This document shows positions 8,470-30,872 of a stretch of 30,872 nucleotides of DNA, in pieces. The stretch's first letter is position 1; each line of letters begins with the position of its first letter. Below the pieces are notes generated by a model. The model worked only from the letters and a program-made list of their open reading frames with translations. It had not been told where the DNA came from and did no database searches. The DNA comes from a virus (Duplodnaviria > Heunggongvirae > Uroviricota > Caudoviricetes). Location: IMG/VR virus record IMGVR_UViG_2657245091_000018. The stretch is one strand, 5' to 3'. Both the position numbers and the translations under genes were made by a program.

Positions 8470-8796
8470 TTATGTAGTTTGCCCACTGAGCAGGTCCAGC
8501 GCGAATTGACGTTCTTCCGGCTTGAGCCGGTCAATCAGGAATTTAACCAGCTTGTTGCCGGTCAGCCCGCTGGGGCTGAGGGTATGTGAAAACTCAACGC
8601 TATAAACAAATGTATGACCACATTCCACTTCTGTGCAGCCACAGTATAAAGACGCCAGTTTTTTATCTTTCCAGTCAGATTTGCGAATGATGGCCGGTGA
8701 GCCGCATTCAGGACATTTAATTTTAAAAACTCGCATGTTCACCATCCCGCACGCCATTGCTAATAATGGGGGGGATTTTAACTTAACTGCGCTCAT
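8470..8796 (-). CDS. Ogr/Delta-family zinc-finger late transcription activator
   Basis: C2C2 pattern MRVFKIKCPECG...LYCGCTEVECGHTF as in P2 Ogr / 186 Delta (CPxC...CxxxxC.H). The long form starts at 8796 in an ATGA overlap with the portal stop (plus 8793-8796 = tcat). An alternative start is the internal Met at 8736 (MRVFKIKCPECG), directly at the zinc finger. Confidence 0.7.
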   Translation of the reverse strand: MSAVKLKSPPLLAMACGMVNMRVFKIKCPECGSPAIIRKSDWKDKKLASLYCGCTEVECGHTFVYSVEFSHTLSPSGLTGNKLVKFLIDRLKPEERQFALDLLSGQTT

Positions 8797-9854
8797 TTTT
8801 CGCCCTTTTCGGTGGCAATTGCCGGGATATCCACGTCAAAAACCAGGTGCAAGTGTGCGGGGATCTCCGGGTCATTATTGACGCCGTTCATTAGCTTGCG
8901 CTGCAAGGGGATAACTTCATCCTTGCGATAGGTTGTGCGGGCGGTTTCAGGGTTGCCCATTACCGCGCCGTTGGTCGGGATGATACCCGCCAGGCCAGCG
9001 GGGAAACGGTGGGCGGTAAAGATATCCTGCGCGGTTATCCCTTTGATGTTGGCAAATTCATCCTTTGCGCTGACTTCACCCACTGGCATGATTTTAACCC
9101 CTTCCGGGTCGCCCTTCGGGATGTTGATAAACATATTTCGGAAGTTACCCAGCCCTTTGGACTGGGCGATCTTCTCTTTGATTTCATTTTCCATTTCCAG
9201 CGTAAGATTCGGATCGCTGGTATAGAGAATAAAGCCCATATGTGCCCCATTATTGTAGTAACGGCGTCGGAAGATGGTTGCCTCACTGTTGAGTAACACC
9301 GAATGGATGCCGCCGATATAGTCAGGCAGGCCATACACCTGCTGGCGCGGGTCGTACATTTTAAAAAAGACGATGTCTTCCGGTTCATAGATAAGTGCTG
9401 GCCCTTCCTGCAAAACAGCAAACGCCCCGTCTTTTCGGCAGCGCAGATACAGCGACGGCAGCGGCAGCAGGTCGATCACTTCCCCGAATACGTTACGAAT
9501 TTTCAGGATAGCGACGTCACCAAACAGCAGGTAATCAAAGACAGCCTGTTCGACCTGGTCAGGCGTCAGGCCGCCGCCGATGTAGCCACCGGCAACCATA
9601 TTGCGCCGCGCATACAGTACCCCACCGTGCTGGCCGTTAAGGTTCGGCAACTGGGCCAGCGCTAGGCGATCAATCGGGAGTCGCCAGTGGTCATACTCAT
9701 TGTCATACCAGATATTGTGATAATCAGTGCCGGTCGTCAGGATGGGTTCGGGTTCGCCAAATGTGATCACGCTTCCGCGCCCTGGCGTGAAGGATTCAAC
9801 CTTGCTGCCGGTCATGGACCTGAATTTTTTATTATTACGCTGTTTCTTTGTCAT
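8793..9854 (-). CDS. portal protein (P2 gpQ-like)
   Basis: 353 aa (P2 Q is about 344 aa). Lies next to and is co-oriented with the large terminase, as in P2-like phages. Start overlaps the terminase stop (9851-9854). Confidence 0.85.
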   Translation of the reverse strand: MTKKQRNNKKFRSMTGSKVESFTPGRGSVITFGEPEPILTTGTDYHNIWYDNEYDHWRLPIDRLALAQLPNLNGQHGGVLYARRNMVAGGYIGGGLTPDQVEQAVFDYLLFGDVAILKIRNVFGEVIDLLPLPSLYLRCRKDGAFAVLQEGPALIYEPEDIVFFKMYDPRQQVYGLPDYIGGIHSVLLNSEATIFRRRYYNNGAHMGFILYTSDPNLTLEMENEIKEKIAQSKGLGNFRNMFINIPKGDPEGVKIMPVGEVSAKDEFANIKGITAQDIFTAHRFPAGLAGIIPTNGAVMGNPETARTTYRKDEVIPLQRKLMNGVNNDPEIPAHLHLVFDVDIPAIATEKGEK

Positions 9855-11662
9855 GCTGCTTTCCCAAAGTACCAGCCCGATGGGCGGTCATATTCGTGAT
9901 CGATAGGTTCGTTAATTACGGCGTGCGAGATAGCGAAGAAAACATCTGCATGGCCGGTCGCGTCTGAACGTTCGGCAACAAACGTCAGCGCGTTGCCGCT
10001 GTTGGTTGTCGTGCGCCGGATAGCCATAAAGCTGGGCGGAATTTCGACGCGCTCTTTGTTCGTTTCGTCTACGGCGTCTTTTGCCCATTCGATGCGCTTA
10101 CGCTCGACAACGTCGATCATCTTCATTACCAGACGGTTTTTGCTTTCGACGCTGTAAAGAATGGGTGTGGCTTCGCGCGGTGCAAACTTGCTGACCAGGT
10201 CATAAACGCCCTTACCAATGCCGGTTGTATCGATCCCGATGTAAGTGATGTTAAAGCGGCGCATAAGCTGCTTTATCTGGTCGGCCTGCCAGCTGAAGTT
10301 AAAGCCCTGCCATTGCCAGACGGCCAGCACGCGGAAGCGCTCGCCGTCCTCTATGGGGGGCGCGATTAACACAAAGGTGGAGTTGTCGCCGGATCGTGAC
10401 GGGTCAAAGCCTGCCCATACTTCGCGATTGCCGAAGGGCCGCGCAGCGGTCAGATCAAAGTCGCCCCATGTGGCCCGGTCCACTTCGCAGCCGACAAGCG
10501 CGGAGAACTTGAACACCGCGTCCTTACTGTCAACAAACTGGCACATGTAGAGCATGGCGAACGCGGTCGGGCTGTATTTGTTGCGCAGCCGTTCAATATC
10601 GACAAGCGCACCGAGGCCACCTTCGATAGCGTCTTCCATCGTTATGATGTAGCGCCAGATCTGGTCCGGGCAGAGAATACCCTGGCGCATTTCGCTTTCT
10701 GTCGGGAACGCCACACCTTTGCGTTTCGGGTCGTCCCCGCGCCAGGCTTCGCCAGTCCATACCGGGTAAGCCTGGTGCGTTTTCGCGCTGGGCGTCGAAA
10801 AGTAGGTCGTCCGGTATTTGTTATGCGTTGCCATTGCGCTGGCAACTTCGTGCAGGCGCGTGAACTTCGGGATCCAGAAAACCTCATCGCCATACAGGTG
10901 GCCGTTAAAGCCCTGCGCGGTGCTGGCGTTCGTGGACAAAAAGCGCAGTATTGCGCCGTTGCTGAGGCGGATATTTTTACCCGTCAGCGTCACGCCGAAA
11001 TGGTTCTGGGCGATCTGGACGATGTATTCACGGAAGATTTCAGACTGGGAGCGGCTTGCAGAGAAAAAGACCTGGTTATCACCGGTAATGACAGCATCTT
11101 CGAATGCCTCCCAGGCGAAATAATAGGTCATGCCGACCTGTCGGCTTTTCAGAATGAAGCGCCAGTCTTCGCCTTTATGTTCGCGGCAGTGCAGCTGGTA
11201 CTCGAAGAGATGTTCCCGCGCCCAGGTGTCGAGCATTTCCGGTGTAATACCGGAAACGTCGTTTTTCTTATACCGGCGCTTTCTTTCCTCTGGTTCCCCG
11301 CCTGCGCTGCTGAGGCAGTACCCTTCACCATCATAAGCCGCTTTCTGGGCCTGAATTTCTGCCAGCTTTTCGGCGTGTTTGTTGCGCTGCGCCATGAGTT
11401 TCACATGGTGAGCAATCAGATCGCGCAGTTCTTCCAGTTCCAGCGCTGTTTTTTTCTCGCGGCGGGAGAGCTGGTCGATACGGCGGGCGATGACATTTTC
11501 CACCGATTCAACAGGCAGCAGTGATGCCCACTTCCCGACATCAGCCCAGTGGTAAATTGTACGCGGTGGAATATTCAGTTCCTGCGCAATATCTTTCGGC
11601 GTCCAGCTTTTCATATAAAGCGTGCGGGCCGCTTCTTTTAATTCATCGGAATATTTAGCCAT
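9851..11662 (-). CDS. terminase large (ATPase) subunit (P2 gpP-like)
   Basis: 603 aa (P2 P is about 590 aa). Position is divergent from the scaffold/capsid operon, matching the P2 Q-P / O-N-M-L layout. Confidence 0.85.
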   Translation of the reverse strand: MAKYSDELKEAARTLYMKSWTPKDIAQELNIPPRTIYHWADVGKWASLLPVESVENVIARRIDQLSRREKKTALELEELRDLIAHHVKLMAQRNKHAEKLAEIQAQKAAYDGEGYCLSSAGGEPEERKRRYKKNDVSGITPEMLDTWAREHLFEYQLHCREHKGEDWRFILKSRQVGMTYYFAWEAFEDAVITGDNQVFFSASRSQSEIFREYIVQIAQNHFGVTLTGKNIRLSNGAILRFLSTNASTAQGFNGHLYGDEVFWIPKFTRLHEVASAMATHNKYRTTYFSTPSAKTHQAYPVWTGEAWRGDDPKRKGVAFPTESEMRQGILCPDQIWRYIITMEDAIEGGLGALVDIERLRNKYSPTAFAMLYMCQFVDSKDAVFKFSALVGCEVDRATWGDFDLTAARPFGNREVWAGFDPSRSGDNSTFVLIAPPIEDGERFRVLAVWQWQGFNFSWQADQIKQLMRRFNITYIGIDTTGIGKGVYDLVSKFAPREATPILYSVESKNRLVMKMIDVVERKRIEWAKDAVDETNKERVEIPPSFMAIRRTTTNSGNALTFVAERSDATGHADVFFAISHAVINEPIDHEYDRPSGWYFGKAA

Positions 11663-12928: not shown

Positions 12929-13951
12929 ATGCAATTAACCCCAAAAGCAGAGCAGATGCTGCGTAAGTTTGCCGCAGGCCTGGCGAAAGCTAACGGCCAG
13001 GTGGACACGTCGCGCTACTTCTCGCTGACAAATCCGAAAGAAACCCAGCTGCGCAATGCCCTGCTGCAAAGTTCTGAGTTCCTGCGCCTGCTGCCCAATG
13101 TGCTGGATGTGGACCAGATCACCGGCCAGGTGGTCAGCACCGGTAAACCGGGTATTTACACCGGGCGTAAAAAAGATGGTCGTTTCTCCCGCGCCCTGGG
13201 CGTGTCCGGTAACGAGTACAAGCTGGTAGAAACGGATTCCGGTTCGTATCTGCCTTACTCCCTGCTGGTTGTCTGGGCGAACGCGGGCAGCGAAGAGGAG
13301 TTCTTCCAGCGTATTCAGGCATTCAGCAACGAATCTTTCGCGCTGGATATGCTGCGCGTGGCGTTCAACGGAACGAGTGTTGCAGAAGATACAGACCCGG
13401 AAGCCAACCCGAATGGCGAAGACGTCAACATCGGCTGGCACAAAATCGTTAAAGACCGTTCATCTGAGCAGATTATTTCTGATGCCGTCACTATCGGCGC
13501 GTCGGGTGCTGACTTTATTGGTCTGGATGCGGCAGTCACTGACCTGGTGCACACCTGCATTTATGAGCCATTCCGCAATGACCCGCGCCTGGTTGTGCTG
13601 GCTTCCGCTGACCTTATCGGCAACGACGCCACCACCATGATGAATAAGATTGATCGCCCGACTGAGAAAGTCGCCGCGCAGCTTATTGGCCGCCAGATTG
13701 CTGGCCGTACCGTGTACACCCCGCCGTTTATGCCGGAGGGGCGCCTTATCGTCACCACGCTGGACAACCTGCATATCTATACCCAGCAGGGCACACGTAA
13801 GCGTAAAGCGGAATGGAACGACGACCGCAAGCGCTTCGAGAATAACTATCTGCGCATGGAAGGTTACGGCGTCGAGCATGACGAGCTGTATGCGGCATTC
13901 GACAAAATCACCCTTGCGACCGGCGAAGTTGCACCGGGAGGGGGCGCGTAA
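12929..13951 (+). CDS. major capsid protein (P2 gpN-like)
   Basis: 340 aa. Shares motifs with gpN as I recall it (GWHKIV, DPRLVVL, TTLDNLHIY versus P2 GWLQKY, DPDLVVI, TKLENLSIY). Sits between scaffold and small terminase. Confidence 0.8.
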   Translation: MQLTPKAEQMLRKFAAGLAKANGQVDTSRYFSLTNPKETQLRNALLQSSEFLRLLPNVLDVDQITGQVVSTGKPGIYTGRKKDGRFSRALGVSGNEYKLVETDSGSYLPYSLLVVWANAGSEEEFFQRIQAFSNESFALDMLRVAFNGTSVAEDTDPEANPNGEDVNIGWHKIVKDRSSEQIISDAVTIGASGADFIGLDAAVTDLVHTCIYEPFRNDPRLVVLASADLIGNDATTMMNKIDRPTEKVAAQLIGRQIAGRTVYTPPFMPEGRLIVTTLDNLHIYTQQGTRKRKAEWNDDRKRFENNYLRMEGYGVEHDELYAAFDKITLATGEVAPGGGA

Positions 13952-13953
13952 AA

Positions 13954-14655
13954 ATGGCCATGACCCCGTGTCAGCGACACCGAGCACGCGTGAAAGCCAC
14001 AAAGGCGCTGGATAAGTGCGAAGCCCTGACGGCATCGCCGGTCAGCTTTCACATTCAAATGCTGGAGCTGGAAAGGGATGTTGAACGGCTTCGCAGTCTG
14101 ACGCGTGCAGAACGCATGGACATGAAGCGCGACGTTCTTTTGCCGCGCTGGATGCCGACCGTCGAGGCATATCTCGCCGGTGATGCCCGCTTTGCCAATC
14201 CGGCCCTGGTTTACTGCGTGATCTGGCTGTTCGATACGGGGGAAATGGGCAAGGCGCTGGACTGGGCTGACGTGGCTATCAGTGAGAGCCAGGCCACGCC
14301 GGAAAACTTCAAAAGCAACCTGCCTGCCTTTGTGGCCGACACGGTGCTGGAGTGGGCGATCATGCAGGCGGAAGCCGGTCACAGCATCGAACCCTATTTC
14401 AGCCGCACGTTTGAAAACATCCGCGAAAAGTGGCGTTTGCACGAAGACATTAACGCGAAGTGGTTCAAGTTCGCCGGTCTTTACCTGCTGCGCGACGAGA
14501 AGGGGCAGCCGCGTGCCACTGCCGTGGATGATGTGAACACGCTGGAGCAGGCCGACGCCCTTTTGGCCCAGGCGGCGGCGTACAACAAAAACGCCGGAGT
14601 TAAGACCATGCGCGAAAAAATCCGCGCCCGGATTAACGGCCTGACCCAGCTTTAA
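13954..14655 (+). CDS. terminase small / endonuclease subunit (P2 gpM-like)
   Basis: 233 aa. N-terminal M-x-x-P-x-Q-R-H pattern and position after the capsid gene, as in P2 O-N-M-L. Confidence 0.75.
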   Translation: MAMTPCQRHRARVKATKALDKCEALTASPVSFHIQMLELERDVERLRSLTRAERMDMKRDVLLPRWMPTVEAYLAGDARFANPALVYCVIWLFDTGEMGKALDWADVAISESQATPENFKSNLPAFVADTVLEWAIMQAEAGHSIEPYFSRTFENIREKWRLHEDINAKWFKFAGLYLLRDEKGQPRATAVDDVNTLEQADALLAQAAAYNKNAGVKTMREKIRARINGLTQL

Positions 14656-27597: not shown

Positions 27598-29322
27598 ATG
27601 AAACCAATTAAACGCCTGTACCTTTCCTCTGATCCGGTCCATCTGATTGACTGCAATATCGTGCTGGAGCTGAACGCGTGCGGTCGGGGGTTTATTACGG
27701 CGGGGACAGAGACAGATTACACCGGCAAAATGGTGCGTATCGATGTTGGTTATGATGGTCTGGTCCTGCGCTGGTTTACCGGGTACGTCGAACGGTCACA
27801 GCCTGCTGATAATGGAACATGCCGGTTGTTCGTGCGTGAGCTGGTCGGCATCTTTGATAAATTGTGGCCGTGTTCTTTCCAGCATCCAACGTTGCGCCAG
27901 ATTACTGACTGGATAAGTGAGCAAAGCGGGCTGACCGTCACAACGCCGGTCGGCGCTGCTTATGCAGATAAACCGATCCCCCACTTTACGCACAGCGGCA
28001 CGGGCTATCAGCTTTTTGCCAGTCTGGGCCGTGCATTTTCAGTGACGGATTATCTTTGGTATCAGTTGCCGGACGGGGATGTCTTCGTCGGCGCTGCGGA
28101 GCATAGTCTTTTTGCGGGAAAACCAGTGGAGATCCCGCACGAATTTAGCCAGGAATCGGCAGGCGGAAATTCAATGGTTGTGCCAATGATTCAGAGCCTG
28201 CGCCCGGGTGCGGAGGTAAACGGCCAGCGGCTGAACCAGGTCCGGCTAAATAACGATGACATGGCAATTACCTGGCAGCCCCGCAACAAAGCCAACGGCC
28301 AGCCATTGCAAAAATCACCCATTCAGCGGCAGATTGAAAACGCATTCCCGGAGCTGGCAAGCGGCCTGCATCTTCCAAGATTCGCTAGGGTGGAAGCGCC
28401 AAGCGAGGATGTTTCAGGGGGGGATATTGCCGATCCATTCCGCCCACGCTATGCCGTGGATCTCCAGCTGCTTGACGAAGACGGCAAGCCAGCCGCAAAT
28501 ACGCCGATCTATTCTGCCGTTCCACTACCTGTGCCAATGGCGGGCAGCGAGTCAGGAATGTTTCAGTTTCCGCCCCCTGGCACGCTGGTTGAAGTTGGGT
28601 TCACTGAGGGGCGGCAGGATAAGCCCTTTGTGCGTCAGATTATGGCGGAGGGTCATAACCTGCCAGCGGTTAAACCCGGTGAGCAGTTGCAGCAACAGCG
28701 CGATGGTGTATCGCAGCGCGTGACGGTTGCCGGAGACTGGGAACGCCAGACGGATCAGACAATCCGCGAAAACTCCATGACTCGCGAAGTCACCACCGAC
28801 GAAGAGATCCGCAAAGTGGTTGCCCGTGAAACTACGGTCCAGGCAACAGATAAAACAACCGTGCTTGGCACGGCCACACTTCTGGCCGGGGCGGTCGTTC
28901 ATATCAGCGAGGGGGATTACAGCGTCGGCACATCCGGCAACCTGACAGTAACCTGCAGCAAGGACAATTCCGTCAGTGTTGGCCGGAACGTGAAACGGGA
29001 TGTCGCGGGCAATGTTACAGACGACGTGAAAGGGGATGTCACGTCAAACGTCAGCGGCGCACTGACTGAAAAAATCAGCGGCATTCGCCGAAGTGTGGCC
29101 CAGGCGCAACAACTGATTGCCCCGGTGGTAAAGCTGGGAAGCGAAGAGATTAACGTCCTGACACTGCTCACCGACACCCTGGACGTGGTGAGGGAGCTGG
29201 CAGAGACTGCCGCATCACATACTCACCCCAATACGGGGGCCAGTGGGCAGGCGGCGCAGTTCACCGCAACGGCCAATAAAACCGGCACATTGAAAAGCAA
29301 ATACGGCCCCCTGATAGCCTGA
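27598..29322 (+). CDS. baseplate hub / spike-like protein (gpD-like N-terminus with beta-helix-like C-terminal repeats)
   Basis: 574 aa. C-terminal region has short repeated V/T/S/N-rich segments (NLTVTCSKDNSVSVGRNVKRDVAGNVTDDVKGDVTSNVSG) typical of spike beta-helices. Last gene of the late operon. Confidence 0.5.
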   Translation: MKPIKRLYLSSDPVHLIDCNIVLELNACGRGFITAGTETDYTGKMVRIDVGYDGLVLRWFTGYVERSQPADNGTCRLFVRELVGIFDKLWPCSFQHPTLRQITDWISEQSGLTVTTPVGAAYADKPIPHFTHSGTGYQLFASLGRAFSVTDYLWYQLPDGDVFVGAAEHSLFAGKPVEIPHEFSQESAGGNSMVVPMIQSLRPGAEVNGQRLNQVRLNNDDMAITWQPRNKANGQPLQKSPIQRQIENAFPELASGLHLPRFARVEAPSEDVSGGDIADPFRPRYAVDLQLLDEDGKPAANTPIYSAVPLPVPMAGSESGMFQFPPPGTLVEVGFTEGRQDKPFVRQIMAEGHNLPAVKPGEQLQQQRDGVSQRVTVAGDWERQTDQTIRENSMTREVTTDEEIRKVVARETTVQATDKTTVLGTATLLAGAVVHISEGDYSVGTSGNLTVTCSKDNSVSVGRNVKRDVAGNVTDDVKGDVTSNVSGALTEKISGIRRSVAQAQQLIAPVVKLGSEEINVLTLLTDTLDVVRELAETAASHTHPNTGASGQAAQFTATANKTGTLKSKYGPLIA

Positions 29323-29527
29323 CAAAAAAGCGGCATAACCGCACACCTCACCAGACACCACAGAACGCGCCACAGCAGGCGCAAAGATTAAAGGTCGCCA
29401 CCGTGCGGCCTTTCTTTCGTTCGTTCAACAGCGGCCCACAGCGTAAGCGACAGCAGGCAAACGGAAGCGGATCCAGGACGGAAACGGCGCTACACCGCAC
29501 CCGCCTGCGCAGTTTGGATCATAAAAA

Positions 29528-29816
29528 TTTTGCAAAAGAAATTTTGTGCAAAGCACCCCGCCAGCCTGCGCCGCTGCTGGGCTTTTGCATCCTGCGGGCG
29601 TTGCACTCTGCGCAAAGATTTGCAGCACTTTGCAAAAGTCATCGCGCCGCCAGCTACTAACTGACTGGATAACATGATGTTTTTAAAAGGATCGTTTTGG
29701 TTTCCGTGACGATCAAAATGATTAGGTGGTATCCGATGGTTTTCGGGGGCGGATATCGTGAAGCCTTGTGCGGTGAGGGCTGGCGGCTAGTTTGCTTTGA
29801 TTTGGGTTTTGCAAAA
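29528..29816. promoter_or_regulatory. cluster of TTTTGCAAAA-type palindromes in a convergent intergenic region (candidate operator sites or structured RNA)
   Basis: Perfect 10-bp palindrome TTTTGCAAAA at 29528-29537 and 29807-29816; TTTGCAAA at 29629-29636; degenerate copies (ttttgtgcaaag ~29541, gcaaagatttgc 29611-29622). The surrounding 584-bp gap between convergent genes has no convincing ORF. Confidence 0.3.
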
Positions 29817-29906
29817 TGATGCACGAAGTTTTGATAAAAGGATCTCTAGCTAAGGGGGAGGGGAACGTATAAAAACCCCCGCCCTCTGGGTGATATTTTG
29901 TTCTAT

Positions 29907-30872
29907 TTATAGAAGTTTACTTACTGAAATCAGTTTGGGTGATTTAATGCCAATCTCACATAATGTTGTATGATGTGCTTCACGCTCAGTTTCCTGATAA
30001 TAGGTGGCTATCCATTCCGTATTTTCACTAACAATGCTATGTATAAAAGAAAAGTAGGGAACATCTACAGATGATAACGAATGGCCGATGATGATGATTT
30101 CGTCTACGTTGCTGAGATTTTTAAAAAATTTAGCGCTGTCAGCAATGACTTTTTCAGTATTCTTAAAAGAACAAGTGAAGTATTTATTAATAGTCTGCTT
30201 TCCCATTTCATAAGAGTGATCGTAATTATCAGCCATACACTGACGCCACTCTTCAAGTTCTTCATCGGTTGCATTTTCGGGCGGGACTGCTTCCTTTTCT
30301 TCAAAGTTGATAGGGTCAATACCATGACCTAAAATCAACTGTTGATCTGATGATGCTTTTCCATGGATATATAAAATTTGTCTATCATCAATACCATAGT
30401 ATTTCTGAAGAGTCTCAGTATAATTAAAACTGATAAAGATAGAGTCAGAATCGATACGCAATCTTTTATTTAAATTAAGTTCGGGGTAGTTAACCTGCAA
30501 TATAAATGACTTGAATTGTGTTAAAAGCCCTTCGGTTAAATTTTTTAGTATACGTTCCATTTCAATGCTTAATGAGCCCCAGTCCTTGTCACGAAAATCA
30601 GGGCTGCTAATTTGGGGTAAAAGATAGCAAAACTCTTCGAGCACTGACTCTGTATCCAGACCCGCTAAGCTGTTTTCGAAATCAGACCAAAGAAAATGTT
30701 TTGACTTATCAACTGCGGAAAGTTTAGGGGGTAAGTCAGTAAATCCCATAAAATCAACCAAGTGATCGTAAATGTCTTGGTCTTTCTTCCGAAGATAATC
30801 CCCAAATGAGAAATAGCTCGTGTCAAGTTCGTGATGCAGATCAAACCCATTCCCGATGATGTATAGCTTCAT
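29907..30872 (-). CDS. AbiH-like abortive-infection protein
   Basis: 321 aa; the start codon is the last three bases of the window. N-terminus MKLYIIGNGFDLHHELDTSYFSFGDY carries the conserved GNGFD signature I associate with the AbiH family. GC is about 35% by eye, clearly lower than the phage late genes. Confidence 0.65.
   Translation of the reverse strand: MKLYIIGNGFDLHHELDTSYFSFGDYLRKKDQDIYDHLVDFMGFTDLPPKLSAVDKSKHFLWSDFENSLAGLDTESVLEEFCYLLPQISSPDFRDKDWGSLSIEMERILKNLTEGLLTQFKSFILQVNYPELNLNKRLRIDSDSIFISFNYTETLQKYYGIDDRQILYIHGKASSDQQLILGHGIDPINFEEKEAVPPENATDEELEEWRQCMADNYDHSYEMGKQTINKYFTCSFKNTEKVIADSAKFFKNLSNVDEIIIIGHSLSSVDVPYFSFIHSIVSENTEWIATYYQETEREAHHTTLCEIGIKSPKLISVSKLL

What the first reader, a model, noticed from the sequence alone, without database searches (positions are those of the whole stretch)
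29323..29906. 584-bp non-coding gap between convergent genes with TTTTGCAAAA palindromes and stem-loops
Convergent genes do not need a promoter region between them, yet there is a large gap here. It contains three copies of a TTTGCAAA-core palindrome (29528, 29629, 29807) plus degenerate copies, a gatcgt...acgatc hairpin (~29691-29715), and a GC-rich stem-loop gggggagggg / cccccgccctc (29855-29886) next to the AbiH stop. Candidates are operator sites for a dimeric regulator, a small RNA, bidirectional terminators, or the prophage attachment junction.
Basis: seen in the sequence. Interest (0 to 1): 0.45.

Follow-up and report, generated by a model that had tools for sequence, protein, structure and literature searches.

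The report
Prophage cos (DNA-packaging) site
The "empty" 584-bp gap is where this E. coli prophage's DNA is recognised and cut for packaging into virus particles (its cos site), with a transcription terminator on one side and an inserted anti-phage gene (AbiH) on the other: ordinary phage biology, but unannotated in this lineage.

Summary
The gap lies inside a P2/HP1-family prophage integrated at the 3' end of cyaR. The attachment junction is about 1.1 kb further right, beyond AbiH and outside the window.

The core of the gap (about 29461-29640) is the phage's cos site:
- CTACACCGCACCCGCC (29490-29505) matches the annotated 16-nt cohesive end of Aeromonas phage phiO18P at 12 of 16 positions, with conserved flanks.
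- It occupies the same syntenic slot as the cos of HP1 and phiO18P: last tail-module gene, then cos, attP and int.
- Four independent virion-derived genome records (ESSI-2, ev015, ev239, SW5) begin or end inside this sequence.
- The roughly 165-bp block is shared with P4-like satellites, which need only the helper phage's packaging signal.

The TTTGCA palindromes are six or seven repeats of a cosB-like array. Most relatives, and all satellites seen, carry TTTCAG at the same positions. Which protein reads the repeats is unresolved.

No RNA family or conserved RNA structure was found. A good plus-strand terminator sits at 29390-29423. The GC stem-loop next to AbiH is a junction left by insertion of the AbiH cassette. 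In relatives the same slot is a hypervariable defence hotspot.

Verdict: a new member of a known kind, of modest interest.

The parts
27598..29322 (+). Last gene of the tail/baseplate module (574 aa), the conserved left neighbour of cos in this phage group
   Evidence: 41% identical over its full length to HP1 orf35, the last gene before the HP1 right cohesive end. 85 of 111 IMG/VR loci that carry the cos core have a homologue next to it.
29330..29342 (-). Weak terminator-like hairpin (GCGG..CCGC followed by T6) readable on the minus strand
   Evidence: Consensus scan. The fold is not better than shuffles (z = -0.35). Relatives have a strong plus-strand terminator at this spot instead.
29390..29423 (+). 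Intrinsic terminator of the late tail operon (9-bp stem followed by a T-rich tail)
   Evidence: Terminator scan; fold -15.2 kcal/mol, z = -2.7.
29461..29489 (.). Left flank of cos with two ACGGAA(G/A)CGG repeats (29461-29470 and 29478-29487), ending in GACGGAAACGGCG
   Evidence: Repeats D9 and D16. The flank GAC.(A/G)AAA..GC is conserved in 116 blocks. HP1 and phiO18P carry CACGGAA repeats at the same place.
29490..29505 (.). Cohesive-end (nicking) sequence CTACACCGCACCCGCC, the cosN equivalent
   Evidence: Unique in the window. It matches the annotated 16-nt cosL/cosR of phiO18P, CTCATCCGCTCCCGCC, at 12 of 16 positions, with the same flanks. The ESSI-2 record carries its first 15 nt as a terminal repeat, and the SW5, ev015 and ev239 records start or end inside it. 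It aligns with the HP1 end.
29506..29640 (.). Right flank of cos, a cosB-like array. TTTGCA-type repeats lie at 29528-29537, 29544-29553, 29582-29590, 29600-29606, 29609-29617, 29618-29625 and 29628-29637, around a near-invariant GC dyad CCAG(29561-29564)...CTGG(29577-29580). A conserved GGATC is at 29516-29520.
   Evidence: Hexamer enrichment. Alignments show six sites at equivalent positions that read TTTCAG/CTGAAA in about 100 relatives and in all satellites seen. The block shared between satellites and phages ends at about 29640.
29684..29716 (.). TAAAAGGATC followed by the inverted GATC pair (GATCGT..ACGATC); function unknown
   Evidence: Conserved among 12 TTTGCA-type relatives. Pairs of GATC sites recur after the last repeat in TTTCAG-type phages but not in satellites. 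The phage encodes a Dam methylase.
29762..29770 (.). Conserved island GAAGCCTTG within variable sequence; function unknown
29807..29816 (.). Distal TTTTGCAAAA palindrome, outside the block shared with satellites
   Evidence: The TTTGCAA core is invariant in all 12 TTTGCA-type relatives although 29720-29800 varies.
29835..29846 (.). TAAAAGGATCT, the last island shared with most relatives and the left edge of the variable cargo slot
   Evidence: Relatives diverge within tens of bases to its right.
29854..29886 (.). G-run/C-run stem-loop: the left junction of the AbiH cassette, joined at an AAAACCCC microhomology
   Evidence: Relatives without AbiH (L134, L140) read GGGGGAGGGGAAAGTATTAAAAAACCCCGTTTTGTGGACGGGG and run straight into attR and cyaR. 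In the window the matching AAAACCCCGCTTTGTGGACGGGG lies on the far side of AbiH (L001 about 13628-13655). Fold z = -0.6 and -0.9.
29907..30872 (-). AbiH abortive-infection gene, cargo in the hotspot next to cos
   Evidence: Pfam AbiH E=2.4e-60; PADLOC AbiH. Absent from phage SI7 and from L134/L140.

Best explanation
The gap holds the cos site of an HP1/phiO18P-type member of the P2 family (Peduoviridae; 92% identical to Salmonella phages SI7, SW3 and SW5). During lytic growth the phage terminase (gpM, window 13954-14655, and gpP, 9851-11662) recognises the roughly 165-180-bp region 29461-29640. It makes staggered nicks at CTACACCGCACCCGCC (29490-29505), leaving 5'-protruding cohesive ends of about 16 nt, and packages the DNA.

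The ACGGAA repeats on the left, and the six or seven TTTGCA repeats around a GC dyad on the right, are the recognition and assembly sites. This layout is analogous to lambda cosQ/cosB on either side of cosN.

The rest of the gap has other roles. Upstream is the terminator of the tail operon (29390-29423). Downstream are lineage-specific conserved islands of unknown role. Last comes the junction where an AbiH defence cassette was inserted into the variable slot between cos and attP.

What is shown: homology, synteny, genome-end mapping in relatives, sharing with satellites, and the cargo junction. What is inferred: the nick positions and overhang length in this phage, that the repeats are protein-binding sites, and which protein binds them.
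For: 1. The prophage and att sites are defined, and the gap is internal to the prophage.
2. The synteny tail-fibre assembly, two small genes, ~550-aa gene, cos, attP, int matches HP1 (cosL annotated), phiO18P (cosL and cosR annotated, 16 nt) and the gene order of K139 (no cos feature annotated in that record; its cos-like core was read from its ends). The 574-aa protein is 41% identical to HP1 orf35.
3. Window 29490-29505 matches the phiO18P cohesive end at 12 of 16 positions. Both are preceded by ACGGAA..CGCG and followed by TGCG, a T-rich stretch and TTTTGCAAAAG. The HP1 junction also aligns.
4. Linear records from virions break inside this sequence. ESSI-2 has a 15-nt terminal repeat, CTACACCGCACCCGC. 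ev015 and ev239 run into Nextera adapter there. SW5 starts at GCACCCGCC.
5. A related K139-like phage, PV94, has experimentally determined 16-nt 5' overhangs (PMC3986222).
6. More than 120 IMG/VR contigs carry the 17-mer core. 85 are phages with the core directly after the 574-aa homologue, and 9-12 are satellites with a P4 alpha-like primase. In E. coli EC958 the core lies between the satellite's defence hotspot and its delta-like gene, where P4 has cos. Homology between satellites and phages covers this block.
7. The repeats are strongly enriched. They change together, TTTGCA to TTTCAG, at six equivalent positions between lineages, while cosN and the GC dyad stay the same.
8. The window encodes a P2-type terminase (Pfam Phage_term_smal; Terminase_5, Terminase_6N and Terminase_6C). 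No P2-type cos exists elsewhere in the window.
9. The slot to the right is a defence hotspot, as reported next to the cos of P2 and P4.
Against: - No experiment or read-level data exist for this prophage itself. The end positions come from relatives' assemblies, which are imperfect: one carries adapter sequence, one has a chimeric end, and SW3 and SI7 start elsewhere.
- The overhang length is not settled. ESSI-2 gives 15 nt, phiO18P and PV94 give 16 nt, and the HP1 record gives 9 nt. Three assemblies start at G29497.
- The prophage carries an IS3 insertion in its early region, so it may no longer package at all.
- The protein that reads the repeats was not identified. gpM identity does not follow repeat type. 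The N-terminal HTH of gpP does not either: phiO18P has TTTGCA-type repeats but the YYWAEK helix of the TTTCAG group.
- The distal palindrome at 29807 and the GATC pair lie outside the block shared with satellites and are not explained by packaging.
Confidence: 0.9

Rival explanations
1. The palindromes are operators for a dimeric transcription regulator (for example the phage repressor, Cox or Ogr) controlling a promoter in the gap.
For: TTTTGCAAAA is a perfect palindrome and is repeated. The distal copy at 29807 is conserved outside the block shared with satellites.
Against: No promoter-like site lies in the gap; the only hit is inside AbiH at 29947. Both flanking genes end here, so neither starts from the gap. 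The same positions in P4-like satellites carry the helper-type repeats, and satellites share packaging signals rather than operators. Repeat type does not follow the lysogeny module: ev239 has Cox/C while ESSI-2 has CI/CII, and both are TTTCAG-type.
Confidence: 0.06
2. The region encodes a small regulatory RNA or another structured RNA.
For: It is a long non-coding stretch with local hairpins (GATC hairpin z = -2.8). It lies close to the sRNA gene cyaR.
Against: There are no Rfam matches in the gap at E up to 10. RNAalifold on 116 homologues finds 7 pairs at -4.3 kcal/mol with almost no covariation. Conservation is of primary sequence and short repeats. No promoter-like site was found.
Confidence: 0.03
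3. The gap is the prophage/chromosome junction (attR), or a remnant of an older prophage end.
For: It lies near the right end of the prophage. K-12 has a P2 remnant at this locus (own knowledge).
Against: The 22-bp att core repeat lies at int and at the 3' end of cyaR, 1.1 kb to the right. The free phage SI7 carries the same sequence internally, between its last tail gene and int. Int arm-type TGTGGACA repeats lie next to the true att sites, not in the gap.
Confidence: 0.01

Closest known systems
cos of Aeromonas phage phiO18P (NC_009542; cosL and cosR annotated, 16 nt)
   Same: Same genomic slot: ~540-aa 'baseplate protein', then cos, attP and int. The cohesive end is identical at 12 of 16 positions. 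The left flank is ACGGAA..CGCG and the right flank is TGCG. A TTTTTTGCAAAAG repeat lies about 25 nt to the right.
   Different: Different host genus. The right flank is otherwise divergent, and no AbiH cargo is present. The phiO18P cos rests on its depositors' annotation, whereas the window's is inferred by homology.
cos of Haemophilus phage HP1 (NC_001697)
   Same: Same synteny, and orf35 is 41% identical to the 574-aa protein. CACGGAAA repeats lie left of the cut, the end is C-rich, and T-rich repeats lie to the right.
   Different: HP1 repeats are of TTTCAG type. Its annotated cohesive end is 9 nt and has a different sequence.
cos of P2 and P4 (Ziermann and Calendar 1990, as cited in PMC9122126)
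   Same: The terminase is of the same family (gpP 41% identical). The cohesive end is G/C-rich with an AGGCGGG motif on the G-rich strand. TGCA-containing repeats (TGCAT/TGCAA) lie on the same side of the cut. The site is shared between helper and satellite, and a defence hotspot lies next to it.
   Different: In P2, cos lies between gene A/old and the portal gene Q. Here it lies between the tail module and attP. The P2 19-mer GGCGAGGCGGGGAAAGCAC is absent from the window, and blastn finds no similarity.
Lambda cos (cosQ-cosN-cosB)
   Same: It works in a similar way: a nicking site flanked by arrays of short repeats that position terminase (own knowledge; PMC4669245 abstract).
   Different: There is no sequence or protein homology of the small terminase. 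Membership is not claimed; the comparison is an analogy of architecture only.

Membership tests
cos site of HP1/phiO18P-type Peduoviridae | Physical ends of virion DNA map to the site | tested here: met
   This was tested indirectly, in relatives only. The ESSI-2, ev015, ev239 and SW5 records begin or end within the homologue of 29490-29505. The annotated phiO18P and HP1 ends align there.
cos site of HP1/phiO18P-type Peduoviridae | Syntenic position between the last tail-module gene and attP/int | tested here: met
   85 of 111 loci.
cos site of HP1/phiO18P-type Peduoviridae | The phage encodes gpM/gpP-type terminase | tested here: met
   Pfam Phage_term_smal E=3.5e-34; Terminase_5, Terminase_6N and Terminase_6C.
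cos site of HP1/phiO18P-type Peduoviridae | Staggered nicks giving 5' cohesive ends in this phage | not testable with these tools
   This needs virion DNA. The related phage PV94 has 16-nt 5' overhangs shown by run-off sequencing (PMC3986222).
Helper/satellite shared packaging signal (P2/P4 paradigm) | The same block is present in satellites that lack structural genes | tested here: met
   9-12 IMG/VR satellites with a P4 alpha-like primase and the EC958 element carry the block. All are of TTTCAG type, and none has the window's TTTGCA type.
Prophage attachment junction (attL/attR) | A core sequence repeated at both prophage ends | tested here: not met
   The core repeat lies at int and in the 3' end of cyaR, not in the gap.
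Rfam RNA families / structured sRNA | A covariance-model match or a conserved secondary structure | tested here: not met
Rho-independent terminator | A GC-rich hairpin followed by a T-run, more stable than shuffled sequence | tested here: met
   Met for 29390-29423 on the plus strand. Not met for the 29854-29886 stem-loop (z = -0.6 and -0.9).
cosB-like terminase-binding repeat array | Repeats bound by a terminase subunit | tested here: inconclusive
   The repeats are enriched and change together between lineages. Neither gpM nor the gpP N-terminal HTH follows repeat type. Binding cannot be tested here.

The most novel reading that the evidence does not exclude
The short repeats that flank the conserved nicking site define interchangeable packaging-specificity classes within HP1-type phages: TTTCAG in HP1, ESSI-2-like phages and all the P4-like satellites seen; TTTGCA in this phage, SI7 and phiO18P; TTTCGA in K139. 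A switch of all the repeats would then make a phage invisible to, or unusable by, the very common satellites that carry the other class. In that reading, divergence of cos acts as an escape from satellite parasitism.
Probability: 0.2. Interest if true: 0.55.

Novelty: new member of a known kind. Interest (0 to 1): 0.3.

Why it matters
It assigns a function to a conserved, unannotated 165-180-bp element found in 19 complete E. coli genomes, in well over 100 viral contigs, and, in its satellite form, apparently in several hundred E. coli genomes.

It fixes the true prophage boundaries and shows that AbiH is phage cargo. The variable slot between cos and attP in this lineage is a defence hotspot carrying AbiH, AbiU, AbiJ, retron-like RT, ShosA, HEC and PDC systems, and R-M genes. 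This extends to HP1-type phages the rule, reported for P2 and P4, that hotspots lie next to cos.

It also gives a sequence marker for predicting which satellites a given helper phage could package. The finding itself is ordinary phage biology.

Tried and rejected
- Rfam, at the permissive threshold, found nothing in the gap.
- RNAalifold on 116 homologues found no conserved structure.
- att repeats were searched for and found elsewhere.
- A P2-type cos 19-mer was searched for anywhere in the window, including the classical position near the portal gene (8207-8470), and is absent.
- Correlation of repeat type with the small terminase gpM was tested. Identities are about 50-58% across types and 50-69% within the TTTCAG type, so there is no partition.
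- Correlation with the gpP N-terminal HTH looked promising when HP1 was added but failed once phiO18P and K139 were included.
- Coding potential of the gap's ORFs, and of the small ORFs annotated in SI7, was rejected because of a frame-shifting indel between close relatives.
- A full-text search for the cohesive-end sequence returned no paper. Searches for vB_YenM_324 and Irrigatiovirus returned nothing useful.
- The GC stem-loop as an AbiH terminator is not better than shuffled sequence and exists only in the AbiH-bearing variant.

Full report
OBSERVATION. The gap 29323-29906 lies between the stop codon of a 574-aa plus-strand gene (27598-29322) and the stop codon of a minus-strand AbiH gene (29907-30872). 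All three exact TTTGCAAA sites of the 30.9-kb window are inside it. Nine of the window's 30 TTTGCA/TGCAAA hexamers are in the gap (0.40 expected), and seven are in 29505-29640. Only 1 of 2000 dinucleotide shuffles of that block reaches seven. The GATCGT..ACGATC inverted repeat is at 29690-29714 and folds better than shuffled sequence (z = -2.8). The G-run/C-run stem-loop at 29854-29886 does not (z = -0.6 and -0.9).

CONTEXT. The window is an E. coli prophage. The gap is at least 99.8% identical in 19 of 5,426 complete genomes, and nothing is annotated in it. In strain 2011C-4251 the prophage lies between yegR and yegQ. Its gene order is int, HTH repressor, cox, an IS3 insertion, dam, replication endonuclease, a 930-aa ORF, ogr, portal, terminase, capsid genes, lysis and tail genes, the 574-aa gene, the gap, and AbiH. 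A 22-bp direct repeat, aaaaaataagcccgtgtaaggg, lies next to int and again inside the 3' end of the sRNA gene cyaR (Rfam CyaR 100.7 bits), about 170 bp beyond the AbiH start codon. TGTGGACA-type repeats lie beside both copies. The attachment junction therefore lies outside the window, at the equivalent of 31038-31059. The gap and AbiH are both inside the prophage.

WHAT THE CORE OF THE GAP IS. A sensitive DNA search found the gap at 92% identity in the free Salmonella phages SI7, SW3 and SW5, where it lies between the same tail gene and int, without AbiH. It also found a 50-nt piece (29482-29531) in about 500 E. coli genomes. In EC958 that piece lies in a P4-like satellite, between the defence hotspot (sce7725/7726) and a delta-like gene. 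That is where P4 has its cos site.

The 17-mer CACCGCACCCGCCTGCG occurs in more than 120 IMG/VR viral contigs. Of 111 true family members, 85 have it directly after a homologue of the 574-aa gene. Nine to twelve are satellites with a P4 alpha-like primase. The rest are too short to classify.

Linear genome records obtained from virions break inside one short sequence:
- Cronobacter phage ESSI-2 has CTACACCGCACCCGC at both ends of its record.
- ESSI2_ev015 ends at ...GGCGCTAC followed by Nextera adapter, and starts at GCACCCGCC.
- ESSI2_ev239 ends at ...CTACACCGCACC, and starts with adapter followed by GCCCCCGCC.
- SW5 ends at ...CTACACCGC and starts at GCACCCGCC.

The gene order tail-fibre assembly, two small genes, ~550-aa gene, genome end, attP, int is that of HP1, K139 and phiO18P. 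The 574-aa protein is 41% identical over its full length to HP1 orf35.

The annotated 16-nt cohesive end of phiO18P, CTCATCCGCTCCCGCC, matches window 29490-29505, CTACACCGCACCCGCC, at 12 of 16 positions. The flanks match as well: ACGGAA..CGCG on the left, and on the right TGCG, then a T-rich stretch, then TTTTGCAAAAG. The joined HP1 ends also align. A K139-like phage, PV94, has 16-nt 5' overhangs shown by run-off sequencing (PMC3986222). The window encodes gpM/gpP-type terminase and has no P2-type cos anywhere. I conclude that 29461-29640 is the phage's cos site, with confidence about 0.9.

THE PALINDROMES. An alignment of 116 distinct blocks shows an invariant nicking core and a near-invariant CCAG..CTGG dyad (29561-29564 and 29577-29580). 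It also shows six repeat positions. These read TTTGCA or TGCAA in the window's family (16 distinct sequences with 4-8 copies and no TTTCAG). They read TTTCAG or CTGAAA in about 100 others, including every satellite. HP1 is TTTCAG-type, phiO18P is TTTGCA-type, and K139 has TTTCGAAA. P2 and P4 have TGCAT/TGCAA repeats on the same side of their cut.

Repeats in direct as well as inverted orientation change together, and no RNA structure is conserved. Satellites, which need only the helper's packaging signal, keep the repeats. The best reading is therefore an array of protein-binding sites that positions terminase, analogous to lambda cosB. This step is inferred, with confidence about 0.55.

I could not identify the reading protein. 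gpM is about equally divergent within and between repeat types. The N-terminal HTH of gpP (Pfam Terminase_5) differs in the window (IYHWADVGK against IYYWAEKY), but phiO18P breaks the correlation.

THE REST OF THE GAP. 29390-29423 is a good plus-strand terminator for the tail operon. To the right of the shared block, the window's family keeps several islands within otherwise variable sequence:
- TAAAAGGATC followed by the GATC pair (29684-29716);
- GAAGCCTTG (29762-29770);
- the distal TTTTGCAAAA (29807-29816, TTTGCAA core invariant in 12 relatives);
- TAAAAGGATCT (29835-29846).

Their role is unexplained. GATC pairs also recur in TTTCAG-type phages but not in satellites, and the phage encodes a Dam methylase.

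Relatives without AbiH read GGGGGAGGGGAAAGTATTAAAAAACCCCGTTTTGTGGACGGGG and continue into attR and cyaR. In the window the AbiH cassette is inserted at the AAAACCCC microhomology.

HOTSPOT. In 58 non-satellite relatives, the first 3 kb to the right of cos holds 137 ORFs of at least 120 aa, falling into 90 clusters. I scanned 21 cargo proteins against PADLOC: 20 sampled from relatives plus the window's own AbiH. Twelve match defence models: AbiH, AbiU, AbiJ, a retron-like RT, ShosA, HEC-04, HEC-07, PDC-S49, PDC-S31, a type II methylase, an LmuA-like protein and an Aga-type nuclease. This fits the report that the P2 and P4 defence hotspots lie directly next to cos (PMC9122126).

COMPARISON AND NOVELTY. 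The element is a member of the known class of cos sites of P2/HP1-family phages. Its closest relatives are the annotated cos sites of phiO18P and HP1. It differs from P2 in position and in sequence. No paper in the searchable library contains the cohesive-end sequence, and no record annotates it in this lineage. It is therefore a new member of a known kind. The repeat-type classes and their relation to satellites are the only part that might interest a specialist.

LIMITS. No data come from this prophage's own virions, and the IS3 insertion may have inactivated it. The overhang length is unresolved, between 9 and 16 nt. The relatives' assemblies are imperfect.

Noticed in passing
window 5415-8207 (+): A 930-aa ORF lies between the replication endonuclease gene and ogr/portal. 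This is the classical P2 old/tin hotspot position, although cos is not there in this phage. It has no Pfam or PADLOC match.
   Followed up: partly
L005 (E. coli EC958) 1668-10051; L034, L073, L121: The P4-like satellites widespread in E. coli (the piece 29482-29531 matches in about 500 of 5,426 complete genomes; 428 genomes fall in the 80-90% identity band, and only EC958 was inspected) carry the HP1/ESSI-2-type cos core rather than the P2/P4 19-mer. With ESSI-2-like phages they also share an ogr/delta-like gene and a capsid-like gene. Phages with a matching cos seem far rarer in E. coli than these satellites.
   Followed up: partly
L189 (LR597649) and L191 (LR597637) record ends: The GenBank records of phages ESSI2_ev015 and ev239 contain Illumina Nextera adapter sequence at their ends. 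ev239 also has an apparently chimeric tail of coding sequence after CTACACCGCACC.
   Followed up: yes
L001 13551-13804 (just right of the window); L002 13236-13330: The prophage integrates into the terminator of the sRNA gene cyaR and regenerates it. A bidirectional terminator (AAAACCCCGCTTTGTGGACGGGGTTTG) lies between cyaR/attR and the AbiH start. An extra partial att-like remnant (aagggagattc...gatgtggtcaatgg) lies left of attL.
   Followed up: partly
window 29517, 29690, 29711, 29841; A1 columns 205-225: GATC sites sit at conserved positions in and after the cos block. Pairs of GGATC about 12 nt apart recur in most phage relatives but not in satellites. The phage encodes its own Dam methylase (window 1551-2441). 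This is reminiscent of Dam-dependent cleavage of the P1 pac site (own knowledge). It was not tested.
   Followed up: no
window ~29600: The window's clade has a 1-nt deletion in repeat 3 (GTTGCAC instead of GTTTGCAC) relative to all 11 other TTTGCA-type sequences aligned, including those closest to the free phages.
   Followed up: no
window 1-150; L002 15645-16858: The window starts inside an IS3-family transposase inserted in the prophage's early region, so the prophage may be defective.
   Followed up: no
L195 (K139) record ends: The K139 record is cut about 30 nt to the right of a cos-like core (CTCCTCTACACCCGCC). Its repeats are a third type, TTTCGAAA. The literature says K139 has terminally redundant ends, unlike its relative PV94.
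   Followed up: partly
L003 4183-4347 and 4517-4723 (SI7 QEI25454, QEI25455): The first of the two small 'hypothetical protein' ORFs annotated in the SI7 gap (QEI25454) overlaps the cos repeats, and a frame-shifting indel separates it from the window, so it is probably spurious. The second (QEI25455) lies to the right of the region shared with the window and was not checked.
   Followed up: partly
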